Of a stretch of DNA of 64,000 nt, positions 1,055 through 62,336 are shown piece after piece. Within the stretch, counting starts at the first letter, position 1; every line of letters begins with the position of its first letter. The position numbers and the translations under genes were made by a program. Source of the stretch: a virus (lineage: Duplodnaviria; Heunggongvirae; Uroviricota; Caudoviricetes); the IMG/VR virus record IMGVR_UViG_3300029976_000110; one strand, written 5' to 3'. The notes under the pieces were generated by a model, which did not search any database, was not told where the DNA came from, and saw only the letters and a list, made by a program, of their open reading frames with translations.

Positions 1055-1297
1055 TCAATTATTTTTATACCAGTCTATTATTTGTTGAACAGTCATCATT
1101 CCAACTCTCTTTTTTATTACTTTGTTATTATCGTCAAGCATGATAAGAGTTGGGACAGATCGGATTCCATACTTAGAAGCTTCTTCTAGTTCGTTATCTA
1201 TACATATAGATGTATATTCTATTCCAGTTTCTTGTAAATTCTTCTCTAATAACTTACAAGGAGTGCAAGTGTTAGAATAAAATTTTAATATTTTCAT
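1055..1297 (-). CDS. thioredoxin/glutaredoxin-family redoxin (CxxC = CTPC)
   Basis: 80 aa with a CTPC active-site motif early in the sequence and thioredoxin-like length. Phage RNR-associated redoxins of this kind are common. Confidence 0.55.
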   Translation of the reverse strand: MKILKFYSNTCTPCKLLEKNLQETGIEYTSICIDNELEEASKYGIRSVPTLIMLDDNNKVIKKRVGMMTVQQIIDWYKNN

Positions 1298-1620
1298 AAT
1301 AAATTAAAAATCCGTAAAGAACTTGTTATTTTAGGGGTAATCCAAGGTATCTTAGTTGAAGTACTCGGATCTGCATTACATTCATCACATAAGGCATACC
1401 TATCTAATCTCCAAGGAACTATCTTCTTACCACAACAATGACATCTAAGTCGATAGAAATCATCAGCTTCATAGCCATATACCCAAAAAGTCTTAAACCC
1501 AAATACTTTATCCAAAGTTGGGATAGCTTTTTCAAGTATTCCCCATCTCCCTAGTATCCCGTAAAATGTAGGAGTGCTACTAAAGTCATTGTTGTTGGTA
1601 AGATCTATATTTCTTTTCAT
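1294..1620 (-). CDS. hypothetical Zn-ribbon protein (CHCCG...CDEC)
   Basis: Four-Cys cluster; translationally coupled to its neighbours. Confidence 0.3.
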   Translation of the reverse strand: MKRNIDLTNNNDFSSTPTFYGILGRWGILEKAIPTLDKVFGFKTFWVYGYEADDFYRLRCHCCGKKIVPWRLDRYALCDECNADPSTSTKIPWITPKITSSLRIFNLL

Positions 1621-3689: not shown

Positions 3690-3942
3690 TTAATGAATCC
3701 AATGATCTCCTATTGAAATATCTGCACCTAAATTAACATTAGGACAAAATGGCTTACCTCCAGCAACCATACAGTCTACCAGTACTTTAGCCACTTCATC
3801 TTTCATTGATTCAGGACACTCCAAATTCCATTCATCGTGAGCAGGAACACACATTAAAACTTTGTCTTGATACTCATTTTTTACAATCCAATTGAAAAGT
3901 TTAATAGAAGCTAGTTTGAAGCAACAAGCTCCCCTATTTTGT
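3690..3942 (-). CDS. DNA polymerase family A, exon 3 (motif C and C-terminus)
   Basis: An in-frame segment the ORF track missed translates as ...QNRGACCFKLASIK...LMCVPAHDEWNLE...GDHWIH*. It contains the Pol A motif C (HDE) and the terminal H that are absent from the 4180..5694 ORF. Confidence 0.7.
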
Positions 3943-4189
3943 CATTTTGTTATCCTAGAGGTTCTTTATCCTCTAGCTCTGTATCTTCCTTTTCGATACA
4001 GCTCGGACTATATCTTAGTATATTTTTACAAAACATACTTTCCCTTTTCGTGGAATTTTACTCTCCCATTAGGAGTTCATATTCTAGTCTCTACACCTTC
4101 ACAATATTACTATTGTGCTTGGCTCGATATTCCCATCTCAAGGTTCATCGAATTTAGGGAATTTTAACAGGACACAAACTTACCATTTC
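3943..4189 (-). ncRNA. group I intron (ORF-less, ~247 nt) between DNA polymerase exons 2 and 3
   Basis: P1: exon ACAGGAU pairs with IGS GUCCUGU, with U.G at the splice site. P10: exon ACAAA pairs with GUUUGU just 5' of the IGS. R element GUAGAGACUAGA. S element UAAGAUAUAGUCC, identical to the Tetrahymena S block. P9/P9.1 hairpins present. Ends in a G before exon 3. Confidence 0.65.
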
Positions 4190-5753
4190 ATCCTGTAATT
4201 AATAGATTGCCTTTCAGAAGCGGATTTTCTTATATTAAACTTTCTTACTTCTTGAACAGTATCACAATAAGGAGATTCTTTCCGCATTTGCCAATAATAC
4301 GCAGAAAATTCTGGATCGTTTAGTTTGGCTGCCATCTTCTGTTGCCACTTTGCATCATAAATATGTGCTCGATGCCCAAGTACGGGATTCATTAGAATAT
4401 ATCCCTTACTCATTACTGCATATCTACAATAATCCTGGTACTTCTTAATACCAGGAAAAGCCTTCATAAAGTTGTTATATATTCTTTCTGCATCCTCTTT
4501 CTTGAATCCCTTATTAGCCATAAGTGTATGTGCATCTCCTCCATAGAATATGCCAAACTCGACCCCCTTGGAGTTCTGTCTAAGGTCTTTATGTTGGGCT
4601 TTAATTTCTTTATCAGTAAGACCTCCAAGAATATCTGGCCAACAGCTTCTAGCTACTTCACTATGTAGATCTCCTCCAGTGTTTAATATTTCTATCATCT
4701 TCGGATCATTTGCTACTGAGGCAGTAAGGCACGACTCTTGACCCGAATAGTCGCATGAGAGCCAAACATTGCCTTTTTCAGCTGTGAAACAAGACCTAGT
4801 GCCTTCATCATGTGGTAGGTTTTGCATATTTAATTTATAGACACCCCCACCACTGCTCAGTCTGGAAGTATCAGTTCCAATTGAATGAAGCTCAGGGTAT
4901 ATACGTCCAGTTTTTGGATTAATAGCTTTAAGCCAGTTCTCTCCATAGGTAGAAACTAACTTAGAAGCACCTTGATAACGAAGAAATAGAGATATAATCG
5001 GGAACTTACTTGCCTGCGGAGCTATTTGCTTTTCTTCGATAGACTTCTTTTCCTTTTTTGTCTTCTTATCAAAAGTTTTGCATTGGATTCCAAGTAATTC
5101 GAAGAGAGGAATAACTTGTTTAGAACTACTCCAACTTATAATACAGGCATATCCAGGTTGTACAAACCCAAATAAGTCTGGTTGGACATACTCTACAAAC
5201 TGCTTAAACTTTTGCTTATCAGAATTATATAAGTCGATAACATACTGATTGAGCTCTTGTAACGAGTTATCTAGCTCTTTTTGATCCTTTTCCATTTTGG
5301 CTTTCCAACGATCAACATCCAAATGAATCCCACAATATCGTGTATATGCTACTGCTTTTACAAACTCACACTCAAAGGCAGCGGCCTTAAATAATTGCTG
5401 TTTCTCTAATTCTTTACTTTGTTCAGCATAAATGTCTTCAATCCACATAACATCACCTGCCGCATACACTACTACTTCTTCAGTTAGACCTTCATTGATT
5501 ATCTTACCTCGAACAGTTTTATCAATGTCAATATTGCACCACCTTTGTGCAGCAGCTTTTAAAGAATAACTTAACTCCCAATACTTAATTAATCCATTAT
5601 CATCGAGTATTTGTTGATAGCCAAACTGCCCATCATATTGATCTACAGTAAGAGCTGCTGGCATCCCTAGGAAAATAACTTTATCAACAACCATCCCATC
5701 TATTATGTGTTTAGGGTAAATCTTCTGTACATACAGAAAGGTGAGATCAAATG
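4190..5753 (-). CDS. DNA polymerase family A, exon 2 (ExoIII and polymerase motifs A and B)
   Basis: YAAGDV (Exo III), TGRIYP..GTDTSRLSS, DYSGQESCL (motif A) and RQNSKGVEFGIFYGG (motif B). The ORF stops at ERQSINYRMKW*, just before where motif C should lie. In-frame sequence upstream of the annotated Met extends to ..AFDLTFLYVQ. Confidence 0.8.
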
Positions 5754-6492
5754 CTATTCTCTAATTCTTTCAAATTAGTATCGACTATATCATTAATCTT
5801 TTGATTCATATCCACTAACTTTTCAAACTTTATAAAATTTATATATTTTCTATCTAATTTTGCGTCATTAGAGTTTTTATACAAAATATGTAAGACTCTT
5901 AGAATTTCATCAATGCTGCTAATTCTAATACTATAATAGGTATTTTCCTTTTTTTTGTTTCTATTATAGAATAATTTACCTTTATCTCATTTAAAAAATT
6001 AGATAGTCCAAGTTTCATTGCCGAAGATCCAGTAGTAATATCTAAGTGAACGTCTTTAAATTTGCCAGAGGTATAAGTATAGGATAGACAACCATCTCCA
6101 TATTTTTCAGCAACCTCTTTTGCTTTAGTTCCAGATAAATATAAATCTTTAATCTCATCTACATATATTTGTAGATTTTTTCGTAAGTTAGTGTTTTCTT
6201 TTGTTCTCATAATTAAAATACTTGTTATATCGTTTTGATTTGATATACAAATATAAATATGAAAAACGAAATATCAAAAGATTATTGGGCACTTTTATTA
6301 AAAAATGATATTTTAATAAATTTCTGTTATTAAGAGAACTATATCCCTCAGATAGTCTGTGAGCTTTATACTAATGTATTAGTATCTTAGCTGCTGATTG
6401 TCCAATCTTTCTAATTATCACACTTGTATAGAAAGCTCTAAGGAGTTTCCAGCAATTCACCCAATTTTCTATTTATAATAGCTGCCATTTTG
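5754..6492 (-). mobile_element. group I intron (~739 nt) in the DNA polymerase gene, carrying an internal 103-aa ORF (5899..6210)
   Basis: P1: CUGU|caaaaug|GCAG with U.G at the splice site. P10: exon CAUUUG pairs with the loop CAAAAUG. R-like CACAGACUAUC. S block AAUGAUAUAGUCG followed by a P9 hairpin CUAAUU-ugaaag-AAUUAG. Ends in ..GAAUAG. Splicing rebuilds the Exo II motif as IGWNLS-FDLTFL. Confidence 0.65.
5899..6210 (-). CDS. intron-encoded small ORF (possible degenerate homing endonuclease or DNA-binding protein)
   Basis: 103-aa ORF lying wholly inside the predicted intron between the R-like and S elements. No clear HE motif recognised. Confidence 0.3.
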   Translation of the reverse strand: MRTKENTNLRKNLQIYVDEIKDLYLSGTKAKEVAEKYGDGCLSYTYTSGKFKDVHLDITTGSSAMKLGLSNFLNEIKVNYSIIETKKRKIPIIVLELAALMKF

Positions 6493-6772
6493 ACAGATTC
6501 CATCCGATAAATGTCCTCTCAGATTCTAGATATTCCTTTAATTGATTTTTTTCGTTTTTAGAAAGTGTCGACCAATCAAATACTACTTGATTTTCCTTGT
6601 TTCCCAGCTGAAGAGTTAAAATCTCTTTACTGTGGCAGTCGAGACCAGTAGTTTCACTATCCAGTTGCACTAAAGTAAGAGGATAAAGTACTTCCATGGC
6701 TCCGTGAAACTCAACTTGTTTATAATTCTCTGGACTAAATAGGCCCTTATTCCTGCTTACTAGATAAATCAT
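6493..6772 (-). CDS. DNA polymerase family A, exon 1 (3'-5' exonuclease motifs Exo I and II)
   Basis: LDSETTGLD (Exo I) and FIGWNLSK (start of Exo II). The unspliced ORF runs into WQLL*. Splicing after ..AAUCUGU restores G-W-N-L-S-F-D. Confidence 0.75.
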
Positions 6773-10643: not shown

Positions 10644-10755
10644 TTAAATTATTTTAAGTCCAGAAGACTTTAGAAACTGTGTCATAAATGCTGCATAGGT
10701 TGAAGATTCAATTTCACTTGTTTCATCCCTATTATGAAATTGAAATACATGAAAG
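10644..10755 (-). CDS. small HExxH (zincin-like) protein, exon 2
   Basis: After the predicted 3' splice site AAAUG|CUUUCAUG.. the frame continues exon 1 as ..FWHE-IFHVFQFHNRDETSEIES...GLKII*. The join creates HEIFH. Confidence 0.45.
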
Positions 10756-11824
10756 CATTTATACTTCTTATTTCTAAGAAGATTAGACTATCCCTTCCTC
10801 CACTTTTGGAGGGTCTATTATAGTCGTTGAACATCTCATTTGTTTAAAACTAATAAATTTGTCATATTTCCTATTTAAATAAATTGTTGCATCTTTATAC
10901 ATATAATCAAACAAAGCTAAAGAATCTTTAACACTAAAGTTAAGTACATACACATTTTTATCTAGGTCTTGAAGTTTTACTATTTTTGATTTAGTTGGTA
11001 AATGTTTGGCTAAATCAATTAAAAATTGTTCAGATCCACTACAAAAACCACTTCTTAGTGTATAATAATTAGCTTTACTGCTATTTTTATAAACTCCAAC
11101 AGTTCCATCTCCATCAAAAAACCCTCTTATAAAATGTGGGATTAATGATTCTGGTATATTAGGAAATTGTATAGTTAATGATTTATTAGGGATGCAGCCT
11201 AAACTAATCAAAGAATTAGCTAATTGTACATCATTTATTCTTAAACAATTTATTTCTTTATTATATTTTTTATGAACTTCTTTAGTTAGATTCCCTGTAA
11301 AGTTAATATCTAAAATAAACTGCTTCATTAAATCACCATCGATACAATTCCATCTGACTGCCTTAGAATTATCTGTTTTTTCTTCAACACATCCGTCAGA
11401 ATACATAATTCCAAGCCAATATGCCTTATGTTCTGTGTCAATAATATCAAAGTAGGCACTATTAACAGAGTACTTCTTATAGCAACCCCTTTTCCTAAGA
11501 ACCCCTTTTTCAGACAAGAATTGACGCAATCTATTAGTACTAGTTTTTTCGAGTTTACATATAATGTGAACCCCTTTGTTTTGATTTACATAAAAATCTA
11601 AAATACGATCTTGCTGTTCTTTAGTATATTCTTTTTTCATAGTAATAAAAATTATTAATATTTATCACTACAAATATAATATACTTTATAGTTTTTCACA
11701 AATGATTTTGCTGCGGATTAACCAATTTTAACAATTATTACTAAAAATATAGTATGTTAAACTTTAGGTACTTCCCGCAATTTAAGACGTTTTACAAGTA
11801 TATTACTATACTAGGAGACCCTTG
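10756..11824 (-). mobile_element. group I intron (~1.07 kb) carrying a LAGLIDADG homing endonuclease
   Basis: P1: GAGAU|caagg|GUCUC. P4-like AAAUUGCGGGAA and Q-like AAUCCGCAGC. R GUUCAACGACUAUA. P8 CCUCC-aaaag-GGAGG. S GGGAUAGUC overlaps the HE stop. P9 CUUCUUA-GAAA-UAAGAAG. Ends in AAAUG. Confidence 0.6.
10783..11640 (-). CDS. LAGLIDADG homing endonuclease (double-motif)
   Basis: Two LAGLIDADG motifs: WLGIMYSDGCV and IRGFFDGDGTVGV. The ORF runs through the intron R/P8/S core. Confidence 0.8.
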   Translation of the reverse strand: MKKEYTKEQQDRILDFYVNQNKGVHIICKLEKTSTNRLRQFLSEKGVLRKRGCYKKYSVNSAYFDIIDTEHKAYWLGIMYSDGCVEEKTDNSKAVRWNCIDGDLMKQFILDINFTGNLTKEVHKKYNKEINCLRINDVQLANSLISLGCIPNKSLTIQFPNIPESLIPHFIRGFFDGDGTVGVYKNSSKANYYTLRSGFCSGSEQFLIDLAKHLPTKSKIVKLQDLDKNVYVLNFSVKDSLALFDYMYKDATIYLNRKYDKFISFKQMRCSTTIIDPPKVEEGIV

Positions 11825-12024
11825 ATCTCATGCCAGAAGGTATTATTAATTTGATCTTCAGTTAATTCAACTACTTCATCCTCGCTATCTAACTTTTTAA
11901 AGATAACAATTTCTTCTTTTGTACTATCATAATATCCAAATCTATTATCTCCACTATCATCTTTATCTTTAACAAGGATTTTTACAGTCTGACCTCCTAT
12001 TTCAAACTTTTCTGGAATTTTCAT
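11825..12024 (-). CDS. small HExxH (zincin-like) protein, exon 1
   Basis: ORF 11806..12024 (..QINNTFWHEIKGLLV*). The predicted 5' splice site after ..CAUGAGAU pairs with the IGS. Confidence 0.45.
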
Positions 12025-12123
12025 ATGTCATAATAATAAATTTAGTTAAAACTATATTTTATATTACAGCAAACATAGTGATTTATAAATTAAAAATCAA
12101 ATGAATTTATAGCTTTTTATATT

Positions 12124-16236: not shown

Positions 16237-17516
16237 TTATTCAATAGTACTACTATACGTTCTATGATTGGCTTCAATTTGCCTATACTTATCAAAACCT
16301 TTAATAGGCCTAAGGAATCCGATCACCCTTGTCCATTGAGTCATCTCATGGCTTCCACAATTCGGACAAACAGTAAGGGGTTTCTTATAGATTTTTCCAC
16401 ACTTATCGCATTGTGTGTTAGGGATATTAAAAGTATAATAACAAGCTCCTACATTAAGAGCATGTTTCATTAACTTCTTATATTGTTCCTTACTTAAGTG
16501 ATCTTGTAGGTTTATATGAATTGCCTGCCCTCCTGATGATGCTTTAGCAATTTCCCCACCTTGTAGAACGAACTTATCCAGAACAGAAGTGTCATCATGG
16601 GCATCATAGATATAAGAGTTATAGAGAACTCTATTATCAGGTACTTTATAACCATCAGCTTTATCCCAATTATAATTCTTACTACCTAGACCTTCTGCAG
16701 GTACAATTTCTACATTTAACATAAAATCAGCAGTACTATTTGCAATGTTAAAATCTTGAATCGTTCTAAGAATAAAGGTTACAAAGTTCTTATAGTCCTC
16801 ATTGTTATTCACATTCAGGCCAACGAACATGGCTGCTTCATTAATACCGTTTATGCCAGTAGTACTAAAGAGCTTGTGAAAGTCAATAAATCCAGCATTT
16901 ACGCAGGAAAACATCTTCTTATCCGCCCATTCGTACAGAATAGTTTTATAAGCAATTTGATCTTTCTTAACTCTTTCTAGGATGTCTATTAAATAGTTAT
17001 GGAATTTATCCATGTTCCTATAAAAGTCATTATAGTCCATACCAGAAGTATATCCTCCTGTTCTAGCCCAATCTTGAATGATCCTATTTATATTAAGAGT
17101 AATAACATTACAACTTCCAGTACTAACTCCAGTAAGGCCAATAGTAGATGAGAATGTATTCTCACTTATTTCATTTCTCAGCCTACAACAACTAGCAACG
17201 GCATCAGAATTGTCAGATGTATATGCAAAGAAACTATGTCCTTCAGACCACATTTCTGCTGCAAAGTCGGCATATTCTTGATCTAGATATTCACCATCTT
17301 TACTAAGAAGACAAAGCGATTCAACAGGATAAGTAAGTAAAGTTTTGGTTCTTTCATTATTGAACCATCTCATGAATCGCTTCTGTATGAAACTAACTGC
17401 ATCCCAATTTAAAGTACTTCCATCAGGAAATACAAAAGCATCAAATAAGCTATGCCAATAAAACCTATCAAAATAATTAAAATTTACAACATTTATATTT
17501 AATGTAGTTCGTAAAG
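16237..17516 (-). CDS. nrdD: anaerobic ribonucleotide reductase NrdD, exon 2 (C-terminal part with Zn ribbon and glycyl-radical motif)
   Basis: C-terminus CDKCG..CPNCG then TRVIGFLRP (glycyl-radical RVxG motif). In-frame sequence upstream of the annotated Met continues the NrdD body (..NFNYFDRFYWHSLFD..). Confidence 0.75.
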
Positions 17517-17744
17517 CTACTCCTTTATGTTTCCATAAAGATTAGACTATATCATTACTCTCAATGAGAGACCTCCCACTTCCATCACCATTAACTTGTG
17601 ATGTACTCTACTCACTTCCATCTTGTTTAGATGTGTTTTCGATAGTCGTTGAACGTTCTTCTAATGAAGCTTCGTTGCTGATTATCCTCGACTCTACGTT
17701 AGGAGTTTCCAGCAATTCAAGAGGTTTTACGTCCGCATATTTTT
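17517..17744 (-). ncRNA. group I intron (ORF-less, ~228 nt) in nrdD
   Basis: P1: GUCCGU|aaaaauau|GCGGAC with U.G at the splice site. 5' block UGAAUUGCUGGAAACUCC is identical to the DNA polymerase intron 1. R GUUCAACGACUAUCG. S UAAUGAUAUAGUC. P9 CUUUAUG-GAAA-CAUAAAG. 3' splice site placed at GAGUAG|CUUUAC by analogy; the exact 3' boundary is uncertain by ~30 nt. Confidence 0.55.
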
Positions 17745-18642
17745 ACGGACTTTGATAACTTCTGTTCCCAGCAGGTTGATTTATAGAATAAACCACATTC
17801 TGGAATGCTTGGTCTATCTCATCACCTATTGTACGTTGATTACAACAAGCTGAGGTGGTTACTACAGTATCTGGATGAAGGTAAAAATCTTTTCCCCATT
17901 CTAACTCACAAAAATGAGTAAAGAAGTTAAAGAACTCTCCCACACCAACAGCTCCTTTGCATTGAGAGGAACATAAGAAGATTAGATTGATAAGTTGCCC
18001 GCAGAAACTCTTCAAGTTATGAGGAGGCTTAGTTCCAAGTCCGTCCATTACACTAGTTCCATGTAAAAGAAGTGGATAAAGAGTGATAGCTTGACAATAG
18101 AATTTGGGAACAGAAGTAGAACTTTCATCATGTGTGTAGATAATATGATGTTCTAGGTCTTTAACATACTGTTCCGCAACTTCTGGAAACATTTTCTTAA
18201 GCTTCTTTGTCATTCTACGCCTTTGTATTCTCCTATTTCTCTTTTTATAAACTTCACTCTCTAAATTAGCAACATTCTTTAATGATACATTAGCATTTCC
18301 ATCTGTTTCGGATGATGTGGCTGCGTTATCAGAACTCTCAGAGTATTCATCCATATATTTTAACCTATCTTCATCTTCTCTTTCAAGTTGATGGGTATAG
18401 CGATAAAGAATATAAGATTTAGCTACTTCATTATAGTCCCAATCCATTAAAAGCTCTTCTATCTGATCTTGAATATCTTCAACACTAATTTCATCCCAAA
18501 TTTGGACTTCATCTACAATTTTTGTCAATACATCTTCCCCAATATGAGTGTTTGTAGACAAAAAAGCCTTTTGAAGCGCACTCTCTATTCTAGTACGATC
18601 AAAAGGAACCAGATTTCCATTTCTTTTTCTTACTTTACACAT
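17745..18642 (-). CDS. nrdD: anaerobic ribonucleotide reductase NrdD, exon 1 (ATP-cone and N-terminal catalytic region)
   Basis: MCKVRKRNGNLVPFDRTRIESALQKAF is an ATP-cone signature. The unspliced ORF ends QSP*. Confidence 0.75.
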
Positions 18643-43890: not shown

Positions 43891-43962
43891 TCTCCCTAGC
43901 AGGAATCGAACCTACATCTATAATTTAGAAAAATATTGCTCTATCCATTGAGCTATAGGGAG
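43891..43962 (-). tRNA. tRNA-Arg (anticodon UCU)
   Basis: Acceptor CUCCCUA/UAGGGAG. D-arm GCUC-AAUGGAUA-GAGC. Anticodon loop UUUCUAA. T-arm GUAGG-UUCGAUU-CCUGC. Confidence 0.7.
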
Positions 43963-61313: not shown

Positions 61314-62221
61314 TTGTTTTTAACTTTCACTTAAAACTCTTCTTAAAAGAGATCCTCTTAGAAAGTACTGGATTTTGGTTAAAATTTAATTAGTGGAACA
61401 TTCTCTTTTAAAGTGAGAGAATATGACAACACTGGTATACCTGATTATAATTAATTTCGTCTTAATTTTCAAAGACTCGTCAGAGGTACTTTTCAGTGTT
61501 AAATATTTGAGTTTTAGTTAATTATTGTTTCATTATTTAAAAAGATAAAATTAAGATTTAATTTGAGAATAAGAGTTTTTTGTAGTGTTGGGGCTGTGGG
61601 GTGTATTTACCCACCTTTCAGCCTATCTCCAACCCAAAAATTTCGACTTTATCTGCCAACGTCAATTTGCAGATTAGCTCAATTTTTTTAAAAACAGTTT
61701 GGCGAATTTCACAATCCACCAAACCAAATCCTAAAAACCATTCAAATTATCCCGAAATCAAAAACAAAAACAAAGTTTCTTTTCACAGTCAATATTTCAG
61801 CTCGAATTTCCGATAGGAAAGTTTGAAACAGTCAAATGAAACTGACTGTAACGCTTCCATTACAACTAGTTTTATCCAATTCTTTAGTTCCAATAATCCA
61901 TTAATCTTCGAATTTGATACTCATGTATCATTAAATTGACTTTATAAGCAAATAATTGCACAAGTTTATCAAATAATGATTCATTTGTAATTGTACTTAT
62001 AGCTTTCAAGCATTGATGTATTTCTATCGAATTTAATTCATTATTTGCTTTAAGATGATTAATAGCATTAGTTATTACTGTAATTGTATCATTAGACTTT
62101 ACAGCTTCTGAAATACAGTAATTTCTTCTCTTAAAAGTTCTATTCGTTCATACTCGGTAAAAAACATTTTCTGTGTCATATTGTTTTAATTTAAAGTGTT
62201 ATTATCAAACTATTTACATAG

Positions 62222-62270
62222 GTTCGTCCAAGTCTCATCAATGATAATTTTAACGACTCCTTAGCTGTCG
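62222..62270 (-). repeat. conserved ~48-nt intergenic element, copy B
   Basis: See copy A. Lies 67 nt 3' of 62337..62669. Confidence 0.5.
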
Positions 62271-62336
62271 ATGTATTTTCTACTAAAAATAAATATGACT
62301 TACATAAAAGCAAAGGGAGCTAATGCTCCCAATGCC

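What the first reader, a model, noticed from the sequence alone, without database searches (positions are those of the whole stretch)
10644..12024. Fourth group I intron carries a LAGLIDADG homing endonuclease and splits a small HExxH gene
The double-motif LAGLIDADG ORF (10783..11640) runs through a recognisable intron core: R GUUCAACGACUAUA, P8 CCUCC/GGAGG, and S GGGAUAGUC overlapping its stop codon. It is followed by P9 CUUCUUA-GAAA-UAAGAAG. Upstream lie P4/Q-like blocks AAAUUGCGGGAA and AAUCCGCAGC, as in the Tetrahymena core. P1 (GAGAU / GUCUC) places the 5' splice site inside ORF 11806..12024. The predicted 3' site (AAAUG|CUUUC) continues that frame for 37 more codons with no stop. This creates a 103-aa protein containing HEIFH only after splicing. 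The host gene is small and non-replicative, which is unusual for phage group I introns, and the HExxH motif spans the junction.
Basis: partly seen in the sequence, partly recalled or inferred. Interest (0 to 1): 0.65.

Follow-up and report, generated by a model that had tools for sequence, protein, structure and literature searches.

The report
Mobile intron splitting a phage zincin gene
A self-splicing group I intron that carries its own LAGLIDADG homing endonuclease sits exactly in the zinc-binding HExxH codons of a small, conserved metallopeptidase-like gene of an uncultured phage. It is a well-supported but fairly ordinary example of a known kind of mobile element, in a host gene where I found no earlier report of one.

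Summary
On the minus strand, exon 1 (12024..11825), a 1069-nt intron (11824..10756) and exon 2 (10755..10644) join to give a 103-aa protein reading FWHEI|FHVFQFH. Fourteen uninterrupted homologues of 101-123 aa (44-66% identity) align straight through the junction. An intronless allele occupies the same syntenic slot (DNA ligase, then this gene, then a 73-aa gene) in related phage contigs.

Rfam RF00028 matches both halves of the core only below threshold, because an ~880-nt loop separates them. Four further diverged alleles carry an intron at the identical codon position. Across seven sequences, 20 of 57 pairs in P1-P9 show compensatory changes. P1 itself reads GAGAU/GUCUC, GAGGU/GCCUC and GAGCU/GGCUC.

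It models as a monomeric double LAGLIDADG enzyme with an N-terminal helix-turn-helix. Related alleles have the endonuclease intact, frameshifted or deleted. A diverged relative shares a ~2 kb near-identical island ending 24 nt past the 3' splice site, which suggests recent homing.

The host protein has a minimal zincin fold of unknown function. The "unusual host gene" claim is overstated. Verdict: new member of a known kind. Splicing and cleavage are inferred, not shown.

The parts
11825..12024 (-). Exon 1 of the small HExxH (mini-zincin) gene: 66 codons plus the first 2 nt of codon 67, ending ...CAU GAG AU
   Evidence: ORF start MKIPEKF matches the homologues. The splice site is fixed by the U.G pair of P1 and by frame restoration.
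10756..11824 (-). Group I intron, 1069 nt, from C11824 to the terminal G10756
   Evidence: Rfam partial hits to both core halves. MFE folding recovers P1, P4, P5, P7, P8 and P9. Helices P1-P9 covary in same-site introns.
10644..10755 (-). Exon 2: third base of codon 67, 36 codons and the stop TAA (10646..10644). It encodes (I)FHVFQFHNRDETSEIESSTYAAFMTQFLKSSGLKII.
   Evidence: Aligns with the C-terminal third of 14 uninterrupted homologues. Compared with L005, 5 of the 8 differing exon-2 codons are synonymous.
11815..11829 (-). P1: exon GAGAU (11829..11825) paired with the internal guide GUCUC (11819..11815). U11825.G11819 marks the 5' splice site.
   Evidence: The fourth pair is A-U here, G-C in L006/L012/L014 and C-G in L009/L072.
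11797..11812 (-). P2 hairpin AGUAUA-GUAA-UAUACU
   Evidence: The GUAA loop is invariant and 3 of 6 stem pairs show compensatory changes.
11711..11788 (-). P3 5' strand GUCU (11788..11785) and the P4-P5-P5a-P5b domain: P4 UUGCGGG/UCCGCAG, P5 ACC/GGU, P5a UUUAACA/UGUUAAA, P5b UACUA/UAGUA
   Evidence: Rfam RF00028 model positions 60-138, 26.6 bits. P5 shows C-G to U-A covariation and P4 a G-C to G.U change in L005. Coordinates.
11698..11705 (-). P6 5' strand UCAUUUGU
   Evidence: Pairs with 10843..10836 across the ORF. Three of seven pairs covary among alleles.
10783..11640 (-). Intron-encoded LAGLIDADG homing endonuclease gene (285 aa) in the loop of P6. It has an N-terminal three-helix HTH and two LAGLIDADG domains, with motifs YWLGIMYSDG and IRGFFDGDG.
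   Evidence: Pfam LAGLIDADG_3 29.3 bits against a cut-off of 22.5. PHROG 4645 'endonuclease' 1.8e-53. AF2 pLDDT 90.5. Foldseek top hits I-AniI, I-Tsp061I, bI3 maturase and I-SceI.
10836..10843 (-). P6 3' strand ACAAAUGA, inside the endonuclease coding sequence
10786..10825 (-). Catalytic core P7-P3'-P8-P7': GACUAU (10825..10820), AGAC (10816..10813), CCUCC/GGAGG (10812..10797) and AUAGUC (10791..10786). It overlaps the last codons of the endonuclease ORF.
   Evidence: Rfam partial hit 10764..10939. P7 is invariant, all 4 counted P8 pairs covary and 3 of 5 P3 pairs covary.
10764..10781 (-). P9 hairpin CUUCUUA-GAAA-UAAGAAG, followed by UAUAAAUG ending in the terminal G10756
   Evidence: Five of seven pairs covary.

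Best explanation
The 72-aa ORF is the first exon of a 103-aa gene that is interrupted by a mobile group I intron. The intron splits codon 67, between the E and the second H of HExxH.

Inferred mechanism, following the canonical group I pathway:
- The pre-mRNA folds into P1-P9.
- An exogenous guanosine attacks after U11825, which is held by the U.G pair of P1.
- The freed exon-1 3'-OH then attacks after the terminal G10756.
- The ligated mRNA reads GAGAU|CUUUC and encodes a mini-zincin with an intact HEIFH helix.

The intron carries a monomeric double-LAGLIDADG endonuclease with an N-terminal HTH in the loop of P6. By analogy with characterised enzymes, this protein would cut intronless alleles near ...TTCTGGCATGAGAT^CTTTCATGTATTTC... 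Repair from the intron-bearing copy during mixed infection would then copy the intron in, together with some flanking exon sequence.

Shown here: exon continuity, the syntenic intronless allele, the ribozyme helices with covariation, the endonuclease fold, and the population pattern. Inferred only: actual splicing, endonuclease activity, the target site, and the function of the host protein.
For: 1. Exon continuity. The spliced product is 103 aa. Fourteen uninterrupted homologues of 101-123 aa, 44-66% identical, cover 94-100% of it and align without a gap through FWHE[ILV][FL]H.FQ. A profile search finds 282 representative clusters, mostly ~100 aa.

2. Synteny. In L001 the order is ligase, an intronless 102-aa gene, a 73-aa gene, a 456-aa gene, a 221-aa gene, then sigma-70, as in the window. 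The window's 221-aa counterpart is a VWA-domain protein. DNA of intronless alleles aligns across the junction.

3. Ribozyme core.
- RF00028 matches P4-P6 (26.6 bits, E 3e-4) and P7-P9 (19.7 bits).
- MFE folding of each half recovers P1, P4, P5, P7, P8 and P9.
- The 5' exon ends in U paired with G, and the intron ends in G.

4. Same-site introns. Four further lineages of the gene (L006, L009/L072, L012, L014/L015) carry an intron after the same codon position. Each restores a full-length ORF of 101-122 aa.

5. Covariation.
- On hand-extracted helices of 7 sequences, 98% of cells pair and 20 of 57 pairs have compensatory changes.
- 0 of 500 shuffles reach this. Slid controls give 39-48% paired and at most 4 compensated pairs.
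- RNAalifold on an unbiased MAFFT alignment independently finds P1, P2, P4, P5, P5a/b, P7 and P9, with 13 of 55 pairs compensated.

6. Endonuclease.
- Pfam and PHROG hits.
- A confident double-LAGLIDADG model that matches I-AniI, I-SceI and the I-OnuI family.
- 27-36% identity to annotated intron-encoded endonucleases of Bacillus and Staphylococcus phages.
- Orthologous endonuclease genes, 44-45% identical, in the same-site introns.

7. Mobility signature.
- The endonuclease gene is intact in the window, L012, L014 and L072. It is frameshifted in L009 and deleted in L006, whose intron is 360 nt.
- L005 is 59-83% identical to the window in the flanks. It is 97-100% identical per 150-nt block from about 12813 to 10717, apart from a ~153-nt indel.
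- There are only 2 differences in the 1069-nt intron. The first exon-2 difference lies 24 nt past the 3' splice site.

8. Selection on exon 2. Five of the eight exon-2 codons that differ between the window and L005 are synonymous.
Against: - No RNA data: splicing is not observed.
- Neither Rfam hit reaches the RF00028 gathering score of 50 bits. Even the short L006 intron, which lacks the endonuclease gene, scores only 22.5 bits, and only when searched alone.
- The strongest covariation count uses helices I extracted by hand, so it leans towards the model. Seven sequences from five lineages is a small sample.
- P10 is weak and not conserved among alleles.
- P3 is only 4 bp here.
- The near-identity island shared with L005 extends more than 1 kb upstream into the ligase gene, so it could reflect ordinary mosaic recombination rather than homing.
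- Endonuclease activity and target site are untested.
Confidence: 0.92

Rival explanations
1. The intervening DNA is a dead insertion, either a former intron or a free-standing endonuclease cassette. The HExxH gene would then be a pseudogene or be expressed as a truncated 72-aa protein, with no splicing.
For: - Gene callers report only the 72-aa ORF (P0004).
- Rfam scores are below threshold.
- Some relatives of the gene are genuinely frameshifted (L010, L065), so decay of this gene does occur.
Against: - All ribozyme helices are intact and are maintained by compensatory changes across five lineages.
- Exon 2 stays open in the spliced frame in all six intron-bearing alleles, keeps the family-conserved residues, and shows mostly synonymous change.
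- Exon 2 has no start codon of its own in that frame near its 5' end.
Confidence: 0.04
2. The intron splices but is no longer mobile. The LAGLIDADG protein would then be inactive as a nuclease, or would serve mainly as a maturase that helps the AT-rich ribozyme fold.
For: - The best structural matches include the bifunctional I-AniI and the bI3 maturase.
- The intron is 27% G+C with a short P3.
- Degenerate and deleted endonuclease genes exist in relatives.
Against: - Both LAGLIDADG motifs keep their acidic residues: D82 and D178 are invariant in 32 homologues.
- The L006 intron has lost the endonuclease gene, yet its host ORF is intact. This argues that the ribozyme does not need a cis-encoded protein.
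- The intron is nearly identical in two phages whose flanks have diverged, which fits recent transfer.
Confidence: 0.15
3. The 72-aa ORF is a complete stand-alone protein. The downstream 37 codons would be an unrelated open frame, and the resemblance to an intron would be chance in AT-rich DNA.
For: None beyond the automatic ORF call.
Against: - Uninterrupted homologues need both parts.
- The last residues KGLLV* of the 72-aa ORF are read from intron sequence that forms the 3' strand of P1.
- A similar read-through tail, KKGLLV, appears in L006, where the intron begins with a related sequence.
Confidence: 0.01

Closest known systems
Mobile group I introns of phage T4 (td, nrdB, nrdD/sunY) and of Staphylococcus (Twort, K) and Bacillus (SPO1, 0305phi8-36, Bastillevirinae) phages
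   Same: - A self-splicing intron in a phage protein-coding gene, inserted in codons for a conserved active-site motif.
- The endonuclease ORF is looped out of a peripheral helix.
- Intron-plus and intron-minus alleles coexist among relatives.
- Rfam hits are split by the ORF loop, as described for Bastillevirinae (PMC11878797).
- The window's own nrdD also carries an intron.
   Different: - The host gene is a ~100-aa HExxH mini-zincin, not pol, nrd, td, terL or a lysin.
- I found no report of an intron in such a gene in the paper library.
- The endonuclease is LAGLIDADG, whereas the T4 and SPO1 enzymes are GIY-YIG or HNH (own knowledge).
- The ORF's 3' end overlaps P6', P7, P3', P8 and P7'.
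Monomeric double-motif LAGLIDADG homing endonucleases and maturases (I-AniI, I-SceI, I-OnuI family, bI3 maturase, I-Tsp061I)
   Same: - Two alpha-beta-beta-alpha-beta-beta-alpha domains and two LAGLIDADG helices with conserved Asp.
- Encoded inside a group I intron.
- Foldseek E 1e-9 to 1e-6.
   Different: - Only 10-19% sequence identity.
- An extra N-terminal three-helix HTH domain (residues 7-44).
- Phage origin rather than organellar or archaeal.
- Sequence relatives are PHROG 4645 phage 'endonuclease / mobile intron protein' entries.
Intron-rich gut phages, e.g. Jug phages (PMC12880540)
   Same: - Uncultured, AT-rich, animal- or gut-associated phage with several group I introns in one genome: at least 4 in this 64-kb window.
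- nrdD and DNA polymerase are among the interrupted genes.
   Different: - Related contigs here are ~100-225 kb, not 360-402 kb.
- No close DNA or protein similarity to named phages. The nearest GenBank records are unannotated human-faecal phage genomes at 45-47% ligase identity.
Minimal zincins: SprT-like/Spartan/Wss1, the IrrE/PprI/CapP N-terminal protease domain, minigluzincins (projannalysin, selecase)
   Same: - Five-stranded sheet plus an HExxH helix plus a second helix with conserved Glu (E81, E83).
- BFVD matches to ~100-aa phage proteins named 'Peptidase', 'SprT-like' and 'IrrE N-terminal-like'.
   Different: - No Pfam family reaches its cut-off: SprT-like 14.8 against 25.6, DUF6782 16.3 against 27.
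- No solved-structure relative by sequence.
- No accessory DNA-binding or sensor domain.
- Substrate and function are unknown (PHROG 1233, 'unknown function').

Membership tests
Group I intron (self-splicing ribozyme) | P1 formed by the 5' exon end and an internal guide sequence, with a U.G pair at the 5' splice site | tested here: met
   GAGAU (11829..11825) pairs with GUCUC (11819..11815) and U.G is invariant. The neighbouring pair is A-U, G-C or C-G in different alleles.
Group I intron (self-splicing ribozyme) | Terminal guanosine at the 3' end of the intron, with precise exon ligation that restores the reading frame | tested here: met
   The intron ends ...AAAUG (G10756). The joined exons give a 103-aa protein collinear with its homologues. 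All five other same-site introns also end in G.
Group I intron (self-splicing ribozyme) | Conserved core: the P4-P6 domain and the P3-P7-P8 pseudoknotted domain, plus P9, supported by covariation | tested here: met
   All helices are located. 98% of cells pair and 20 of 57 pairs are compensated; 0 of 500 shuffles reach this and slid controls give 39-48% (the alignment was hand-extracted). RNAalifold on MAFFT alignment A3 recovers most helices. P4, P5a and P7 barely vary: P7 is invariant and the other two show only G-C/U-A to G.U changes, so they are uninformative.
Group I intron (self-splicing ribozyme) | Match to the curated Rfam model RF00028 at its gathering score (50 bits). This is an operational criterion, not a defining feature. 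| tested here: inconclusive
   Two partial hits of 26.6 and 19.7 bits cover model positions 60-138 and 1-253 on either side of the ~880-nt L6 insert. The L006 intron, which lacks the endonuclease gene, scores 22.5 bits. All are below 50 bits. The same library gives 78 bits for the nrdD intron of this window.
Group I intron (self-splicing ribozyme) | Guanosine-dependent self-splicing of the RNA | not testable with these tools
   Needs in vitro transcription and splicing, or RNA-seq.
LAGLIDADG homing endonuclease (monomeric, double motif) | Two LAGLIDADG motifs, each ending in a catalytic acidic residue | tested here: met
   YWLGIMYSDG (D82) and IRGFFDGDG (D178). Both are invariant in 32 homologues.
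LAGLIDADG homing endonuclease (monomeric, double motif) | Curated family model above its cut-off, and a tandem alpha-beta-beta-alpha-beta-beta-alpha fold | tested here: met
   Pfam PF14528 scores 29.3 bits against a cut-off of 22.5, although it matches the second motif only. AF2 pLDDT 90.5 with two such domains. Foldseek gives I-AniI 1e-9, I-Tsp061I and I-SceI.
LAGLIDADG homing endonuclease (monomeric, double motif) | Site-specific cleavage of the intronless allele and promotion of homing | not testable with these tools
   Indirect evidence only: the pattern of intact, frameshifted and lost endonuclease genes and the near-identity island shared with L005.
Zincin metallopeptidase (SprT-like / IrrE-like / minigluzincin) | HExxH motif on a helix packed against a mixed beta-sheet | tested here: met
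Zincin metallopeptidase (SprT-like / IrrE-like / minigluzincin) | Third metal ligand and membership of a curated sequence family | tested here: inconclusive
   E81 and E83 on the second helix are conserved candidates. No Pfam model reaches its cut-off, and there is no PDB relative by sequence.
Zincin metallopeptidase (SprT-like / IrrE-like / minigluzincin) | Zinc-dependent peptidase activity | not testable with these tools
   No experimental data. PHROG 1233 is annotated 'unknown function'.

The most novel reading that the evidence does not exclude
The intron lineage may be more than a neutral parasite. It could be a dedicated, long-term resident of the catalytic HExxH codons of a phage-wide mini-zincin, so that active protease is made only when the ribozyme folds and splices. 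The LAGLIDADG protein might assist as a maturase. Splicing would then act as a timing or condition switch for a potentially host-toxic or anti-defence protease encoded next to DNA ligase.
Probability: 0.06. Interest if true: 0.55.

Novelty: new member of a known kind. Interest (0 to 1): 0.3.

Why it matters
1. Annotation. Public protein sets hold only the truncated 72-aa product (P0004) and similar stubs (P0036, P0070, P0089, P0103). Recognising the intron restores a conserved 103-aa protein. It also shows that threshold-based Rfam scans miss ORF-bearing, AT-rich phage introns.

2. A compact natural series at a single site:
- empty alleles
- intron with an intact endonuclease gene
- intron with a frameshifted endonuclease gene
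- intron with the endonuclease gene lost

The guide sequence also tracks the first base of the interrupted codon (Ile, Val or Leu). This is a clean illustration of the homing cycle and of intron-exon co-evolution.

3. It adds a family of phage LAGLIDADG enzymes with an N-terminal HTH and a predictable ~25-bp target. These could interest meganuclease engineers.

4. It flags a widespread ~100-aa phage zincin of unknown function, often adjacent to DNA ligase, as important enough to be kept intact despite invasion.

None of this changes the current understanding of group I introns.

Tried and rejected
- Rfam at gathering threshold finds nothing in the region. A pooled search of L006, L009 and L010 at E<=0.1 also found nothing. 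Only narrow-range searches expose the partial hits.
- Rfam's local 'P6' (11683..11700 region) is an artefact. The real P6 spans the ORF.
- Intein: rejected. The intervening sequence is out of frame, with TAG and TAA stops 5 codons after the junction.
- Group II intron: rejected. There is no match and no reverse transcriptase.
- Other truncated homologues:
  - P0106/L010 and P0044/L065 are frameshifted intronless alleles.
  - P0093/L064 is cut by a contig end.
  - P0061/L011 is a 512-nt contig whose downstream sequence is unrelated.
  - So I found only one insertion site.
- The 3393-aa hit P0118 is a repeat protein with no matched stretch and is spurious. Longer family members (164-182 aa) have no Pfam domain that would hint at function.
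- The IMG/VR pattern scan for the gene returned 48 loci, all intronless. The search pattern itself spans the junction, so this says nothing about intron frequency.
- A DNA pattern from P5/P4' found one more L009-type copy (L068), one related intron elsewhere (L070) and three chance hits.
- Host inference from the Bacteroidota -7 box TANNTTTG: not enriched, 84 found against 86 expected.
- The sigma-70 promoter and terminator scan was uninformative.
- I did not assign an intron subgroup. P7.1/P7.2 are absent and P5 is extended. I did not use the metagenome-wide or genome-wide DNA scans.
Full report
**Observation**

All features lie on the minus strand. The 72-aa ORF (12024..11806) reads ...NNTFWHEIKGLLV*.
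- P1: GAGAU 11829..11825 / GUCUC 11819..11815
- P4: UUGCGGG 11780..11774 / UCCGCAG 11717..11711
- the 285-aa ORF 11640..10783
- GUUCAACGACUAUA, with P7 GACUAU at 10825..10820
- P8: CCUCC / GGAGG, 10812..10797
- GGGAUAGUC, with AUAGUC at 10791..10786, followed immediately by the ORF stop
- P9: CUUCUUA-GAAA-UAAGAAG, 10781..10764
- ...UAUAAAUG, ending at G10756

Joining 12024..11825 to 10755..10644 gives a 103-aa ORF ending ...FWHEIFHVFQFHNRDETSEIESSTYAAFMTQFLKSSGLKII. The intron is 1069 nt and 27% G+C, in a window of 33% G+C.

**Is the split gene real?**

A search of 5.8 billion proteins with the spliced product returned 15 clusters:
- Fourteen are uninterrupted proteins of 101-123 aa, 44-66% identical and covering 94-100% of the query. 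They align without a gap through the junction (FWHE[ILV][FL]H.FQ[FWY]).
- The fifteenth, P0004, is the 72-aa stub itself.

A profile search of 1.84 billion representatives finds 282 clusters at E<=1e-3, mostly ~100 aa.

In related contigs the uninterrupted gene occupies the same slot as here:
- L001 reads ATP-dependent DNA ligase, a 102-aa gene, a 73-aa gene, a 456-aa gene, a 221-aa gene, sigma-70, AAA_33, and further on a DNA polymerase A split by a LAGLIDADG ORF. The window has the same order, and its 221-aa protein carries a VWA domain.
- L002 and L003 have ligase followed by an uninterrupted 101-aa gene.
- The DNA of these intronless alleles aligns codon for codon across the junction.

**Is the intervening sequence a group I intron?**

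Rfam at its curated threshold finds nothing here. Searched locally, RF00028 matches 11779..11683 (model positions 60-138, P4-P6; 26.6 bits, E 3e-4) and 10939..10764 (P7-P9; 19.7 bits, E 0.035). Partial hits separated by an ORF-bearing loop are the pattern described for phage introns in PMC11878797. Thermodynamic folding of each half on its own recovers P1, P4, P5/P5a/P5b, P7, P8 and P9.

The strongest evidence is comparative. Several family members are truncated right after HE. Their contigs show an intron after the second base of the same codon in four further, diverged lineages:

| Locus | Intron length | Endonuclease gene |
|---|---|---|
| L006 | 360 nt | none |
| L009 | 1269 nt | frameshifted |
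| L072 | same type as L009 | intact, 337 aa |
| L012 | 1159 nt | 280 aa |
| L014 / L015 | 1144 nt | 291 aa |

After the predicted splicing each gives a full-length ORF of 101-122 aa with the family's conserved residues.

The helices covary:
- P1 is GAGAU/GUCUC here, GAGGU/GCCUC in L006, L012 and L014, and GAGCU/GGCUC in L009 and L072. The guide sequence therefore tracks the first base of the interrupted Ile, Val or Leu codon.
- P2, P3, P5, P6, P8 and P9 also show compensatory changes. P7 is invariant, and P4 and P5a vary only by G-C/U-A to G.U changes.
- On an alignment of hand-extracted helix strands from seven sequences, 98% of cells pair and 20 of 57 pairs have changes on both sides. No shuffle out of 500 reaches this. 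Sliding the partner by 1-3 columns gives 39-48% pairing and at most 4 compensated pairs. That alignment leans towards the model.
- RNAalifold on an ordinary MAFFT alignment independently predicts P1, P2, P4, P5, P5a/b, P7 and P9, with 13 of 55 pairs compensated.

UCAUUUGU (11705..11698) pairs with ACAAAUGA (10843..10836) and closes the ~880-nt loop that contains the ORF. Three of its seven pairs covary. The last ~20 codons of the endonuclease gene therefore also encode P6', P7, P3', P8 and P7'. This explains the conserved C-terminal ...RCS(T/E)TII. The window's intron lacks two GUAA-capped hairpins that the other lineages carry in the P5 extension.

**The intron ORF**

- Pfam LAGLIDADG_3 scores above its cut-off, and PHROG 4645 'endonuclease' gives 1.8e-53.
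- Two motifs, YWLGIMYSDG and IRGFFDGDG, have invariant Asp.
- An AlphaFold model built from 32 sequences (pLDDT 90.5) shows an N-terminal three-helix bundle and two alpha-beta-beta-alpha-beta-beta-alpha domains.
- The best Foldseek matches are I-AniI, I-Tsp061I, the bI3 maturase, I-SceI and the I-OnuI family.
- By sequence it is 27-36% identical to phage proteins annotated as intron-encoded endonucleases or mobile intron proteins in Bacillus 0305phi8-36 and Staphylococcus K-like phages. It also matches Lak megaphage DNA.
- The family has more than 500 clusters.

**Evidence for mobility (indirect)**

- Intronless alleles predominate among the family members found.
- Occupied alleles show the endonuclease gene intact, frameshifted or lost, as expected from the homing-endonuclease life cycle.
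- L004 is identical to the window.
- L005, from another sample, is a diverged relative that is 59-83% identical in the flanks. Each 150-nt block from about 12813 to 10717 is 97-100% identical, apart from a ~153-nt indel in the spacer.
- L005 has 2 differences in the 1069-nt intron (one turns a P4 G-C into G.U), 2 in exon 1 and 10 in the 112-nt exon 2. The first exon-2 difference lies 24 nt past the 3' splice site.
- This fits recent transfer with asymmetric co-conversion. Nuclease genes marking boundaries of exchange between phages is a described pattern (PMC10448857, abstract seen). Ordinary mosaic recombination is not excluded.

**The host protein**

- The AlphaFold model (pLDDT 85.5) has five strands, the HExxH helix (56-74) and a second helix carrying the conserved E81 and E83.
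- BFVD matches are ~100-aa phage proteins named peptidase, SprT-like or IrrE N-terminal-like.
- No Pfam family reaches its threshold, PHROG 1233 is 'unknown function', and there is no PDB relative by sequence.
- The function is therefore unknown. The conserved position next to DNA ligase, inside the replication and nucleotide-metabolism module, means that 'non-replicative' is not established.

**Comparison and novelty**

This works like the classical mobile group I introns of T4, Twort/K, SPO1 and Bastillevirinae phages, and like the many introns of gut jumbo phages (PMC11878797, PMC12880540). Its endonuclease is of the LAGLIDADG class. The window holds at least three other introns, one in nrdD and apparently two in polA.

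I found no report of a group I intron in a SprT-like or mini-zincin gene. The host gene is probably new for this element type, but the element is not a new kind. Insertion in the codons of a catalytic motif is the norm for homing elements (established knowledge).

**Limits**

- Splicing, endonuclease activity and zincin function are all inferred.
- The Rfam threshold is not reached.
- The covariation sample is small.
- The phage's host and taxonomy are unknown. The nearest GenBank entries are unannotated human-faecal phage genomes with 45-47% ligase identity.

Noticed in passing
window 17523..17799 (-), with flanking ORFs 17743..18642 and 16237..17373: The anaerobic ribonucleotide reductase gene nrdD is split by a compact ~280-nt group I intron with no ORF. 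This intron does pass the Rfam threshold (78 bits) and resembles the T4 sunY/nrdD arrangement.
   Followed up: partly
window ~3690..6772 (-): ORFs 6473..6772, 4180..5694 and 3690..3854; Rfam partial hits 6285..6464 and 3984..4223: DNA polymerase A appears to be in three exons separated by two more group I introns. The first contains a 103-aa ORF (5899..6210) with no recognised endonuclease motif. Exact splice sites were not determined. Related contigs (L001, L002) have polA split by a LAGLIDADG ORF.
   Followed up: partly
window 60542..60640 and 62203..62271 (-): Two RAGATH-1 hammerhead ribozymes (72.8 and 60.4 bits, both above threshold) lie just beyond a cluster of tRNA genes at 54250..59351. 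Their role was not examined.
   Followed up: no
window 43891..43962, 54250..54335, 56503..56574, 57429..57501, 59280..59351 (-): Rfam finds five tRNA genes, four at the gathering-threshold scan and a fifth (54250..54335, 33.2 bits) only in the E-value scan. Anticodons were not examined.
   Followed up: no
window ~12027..12063 versus L005 2749..3000: The diverged relative L005 has an extra ~153 nt, with a called 60-aa ORF, in the spacer between the ligase gene and the HExxH gene. This lies inside the otherwise near-identical island.
   Followed up: no
window 11641..11670 (-): A 9-bp AT-rich hairpin (UAGUGAUAA ... UUAUUACUA) ends immediately before the endonuclease AUG. It could limit translation of the endonuclease from the unspliced RNA, as described for some T4 intron ORFs (own knowledge). 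No Shine-Dalgarno sequence is evident before this or neighbouring genes.
   Followed up: no
window 11833..11830 with 10758..10755 (-): RNAalifold pairs exon-1 GCAU, just upstream of P1, with AUG|C at the intron's 3' end in all alleles. This is probably a by-product of the two conserved His codons rather than a real helix.
   Followed up: no
L010 142..430 and L065 1456..1770: Two intronless alleles of the mini-zincin gene carry frameshifts just after the HExxH codons. They are either pseudogenes or assembly errors, and in protein databases they mimic intron-truncated stubs.
   Followed up: yes
L070 ~1100..1400: An intron with a closely related P4-P5 region (UUAACUGACGGGAAGUACC ... AAUUGGUUAAUCCGCAGCC) occurs in a different, unidentified gene of another viral contig. 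The ribozyme lineage is therefore not confined to the zincin gene.
   Followed up: no
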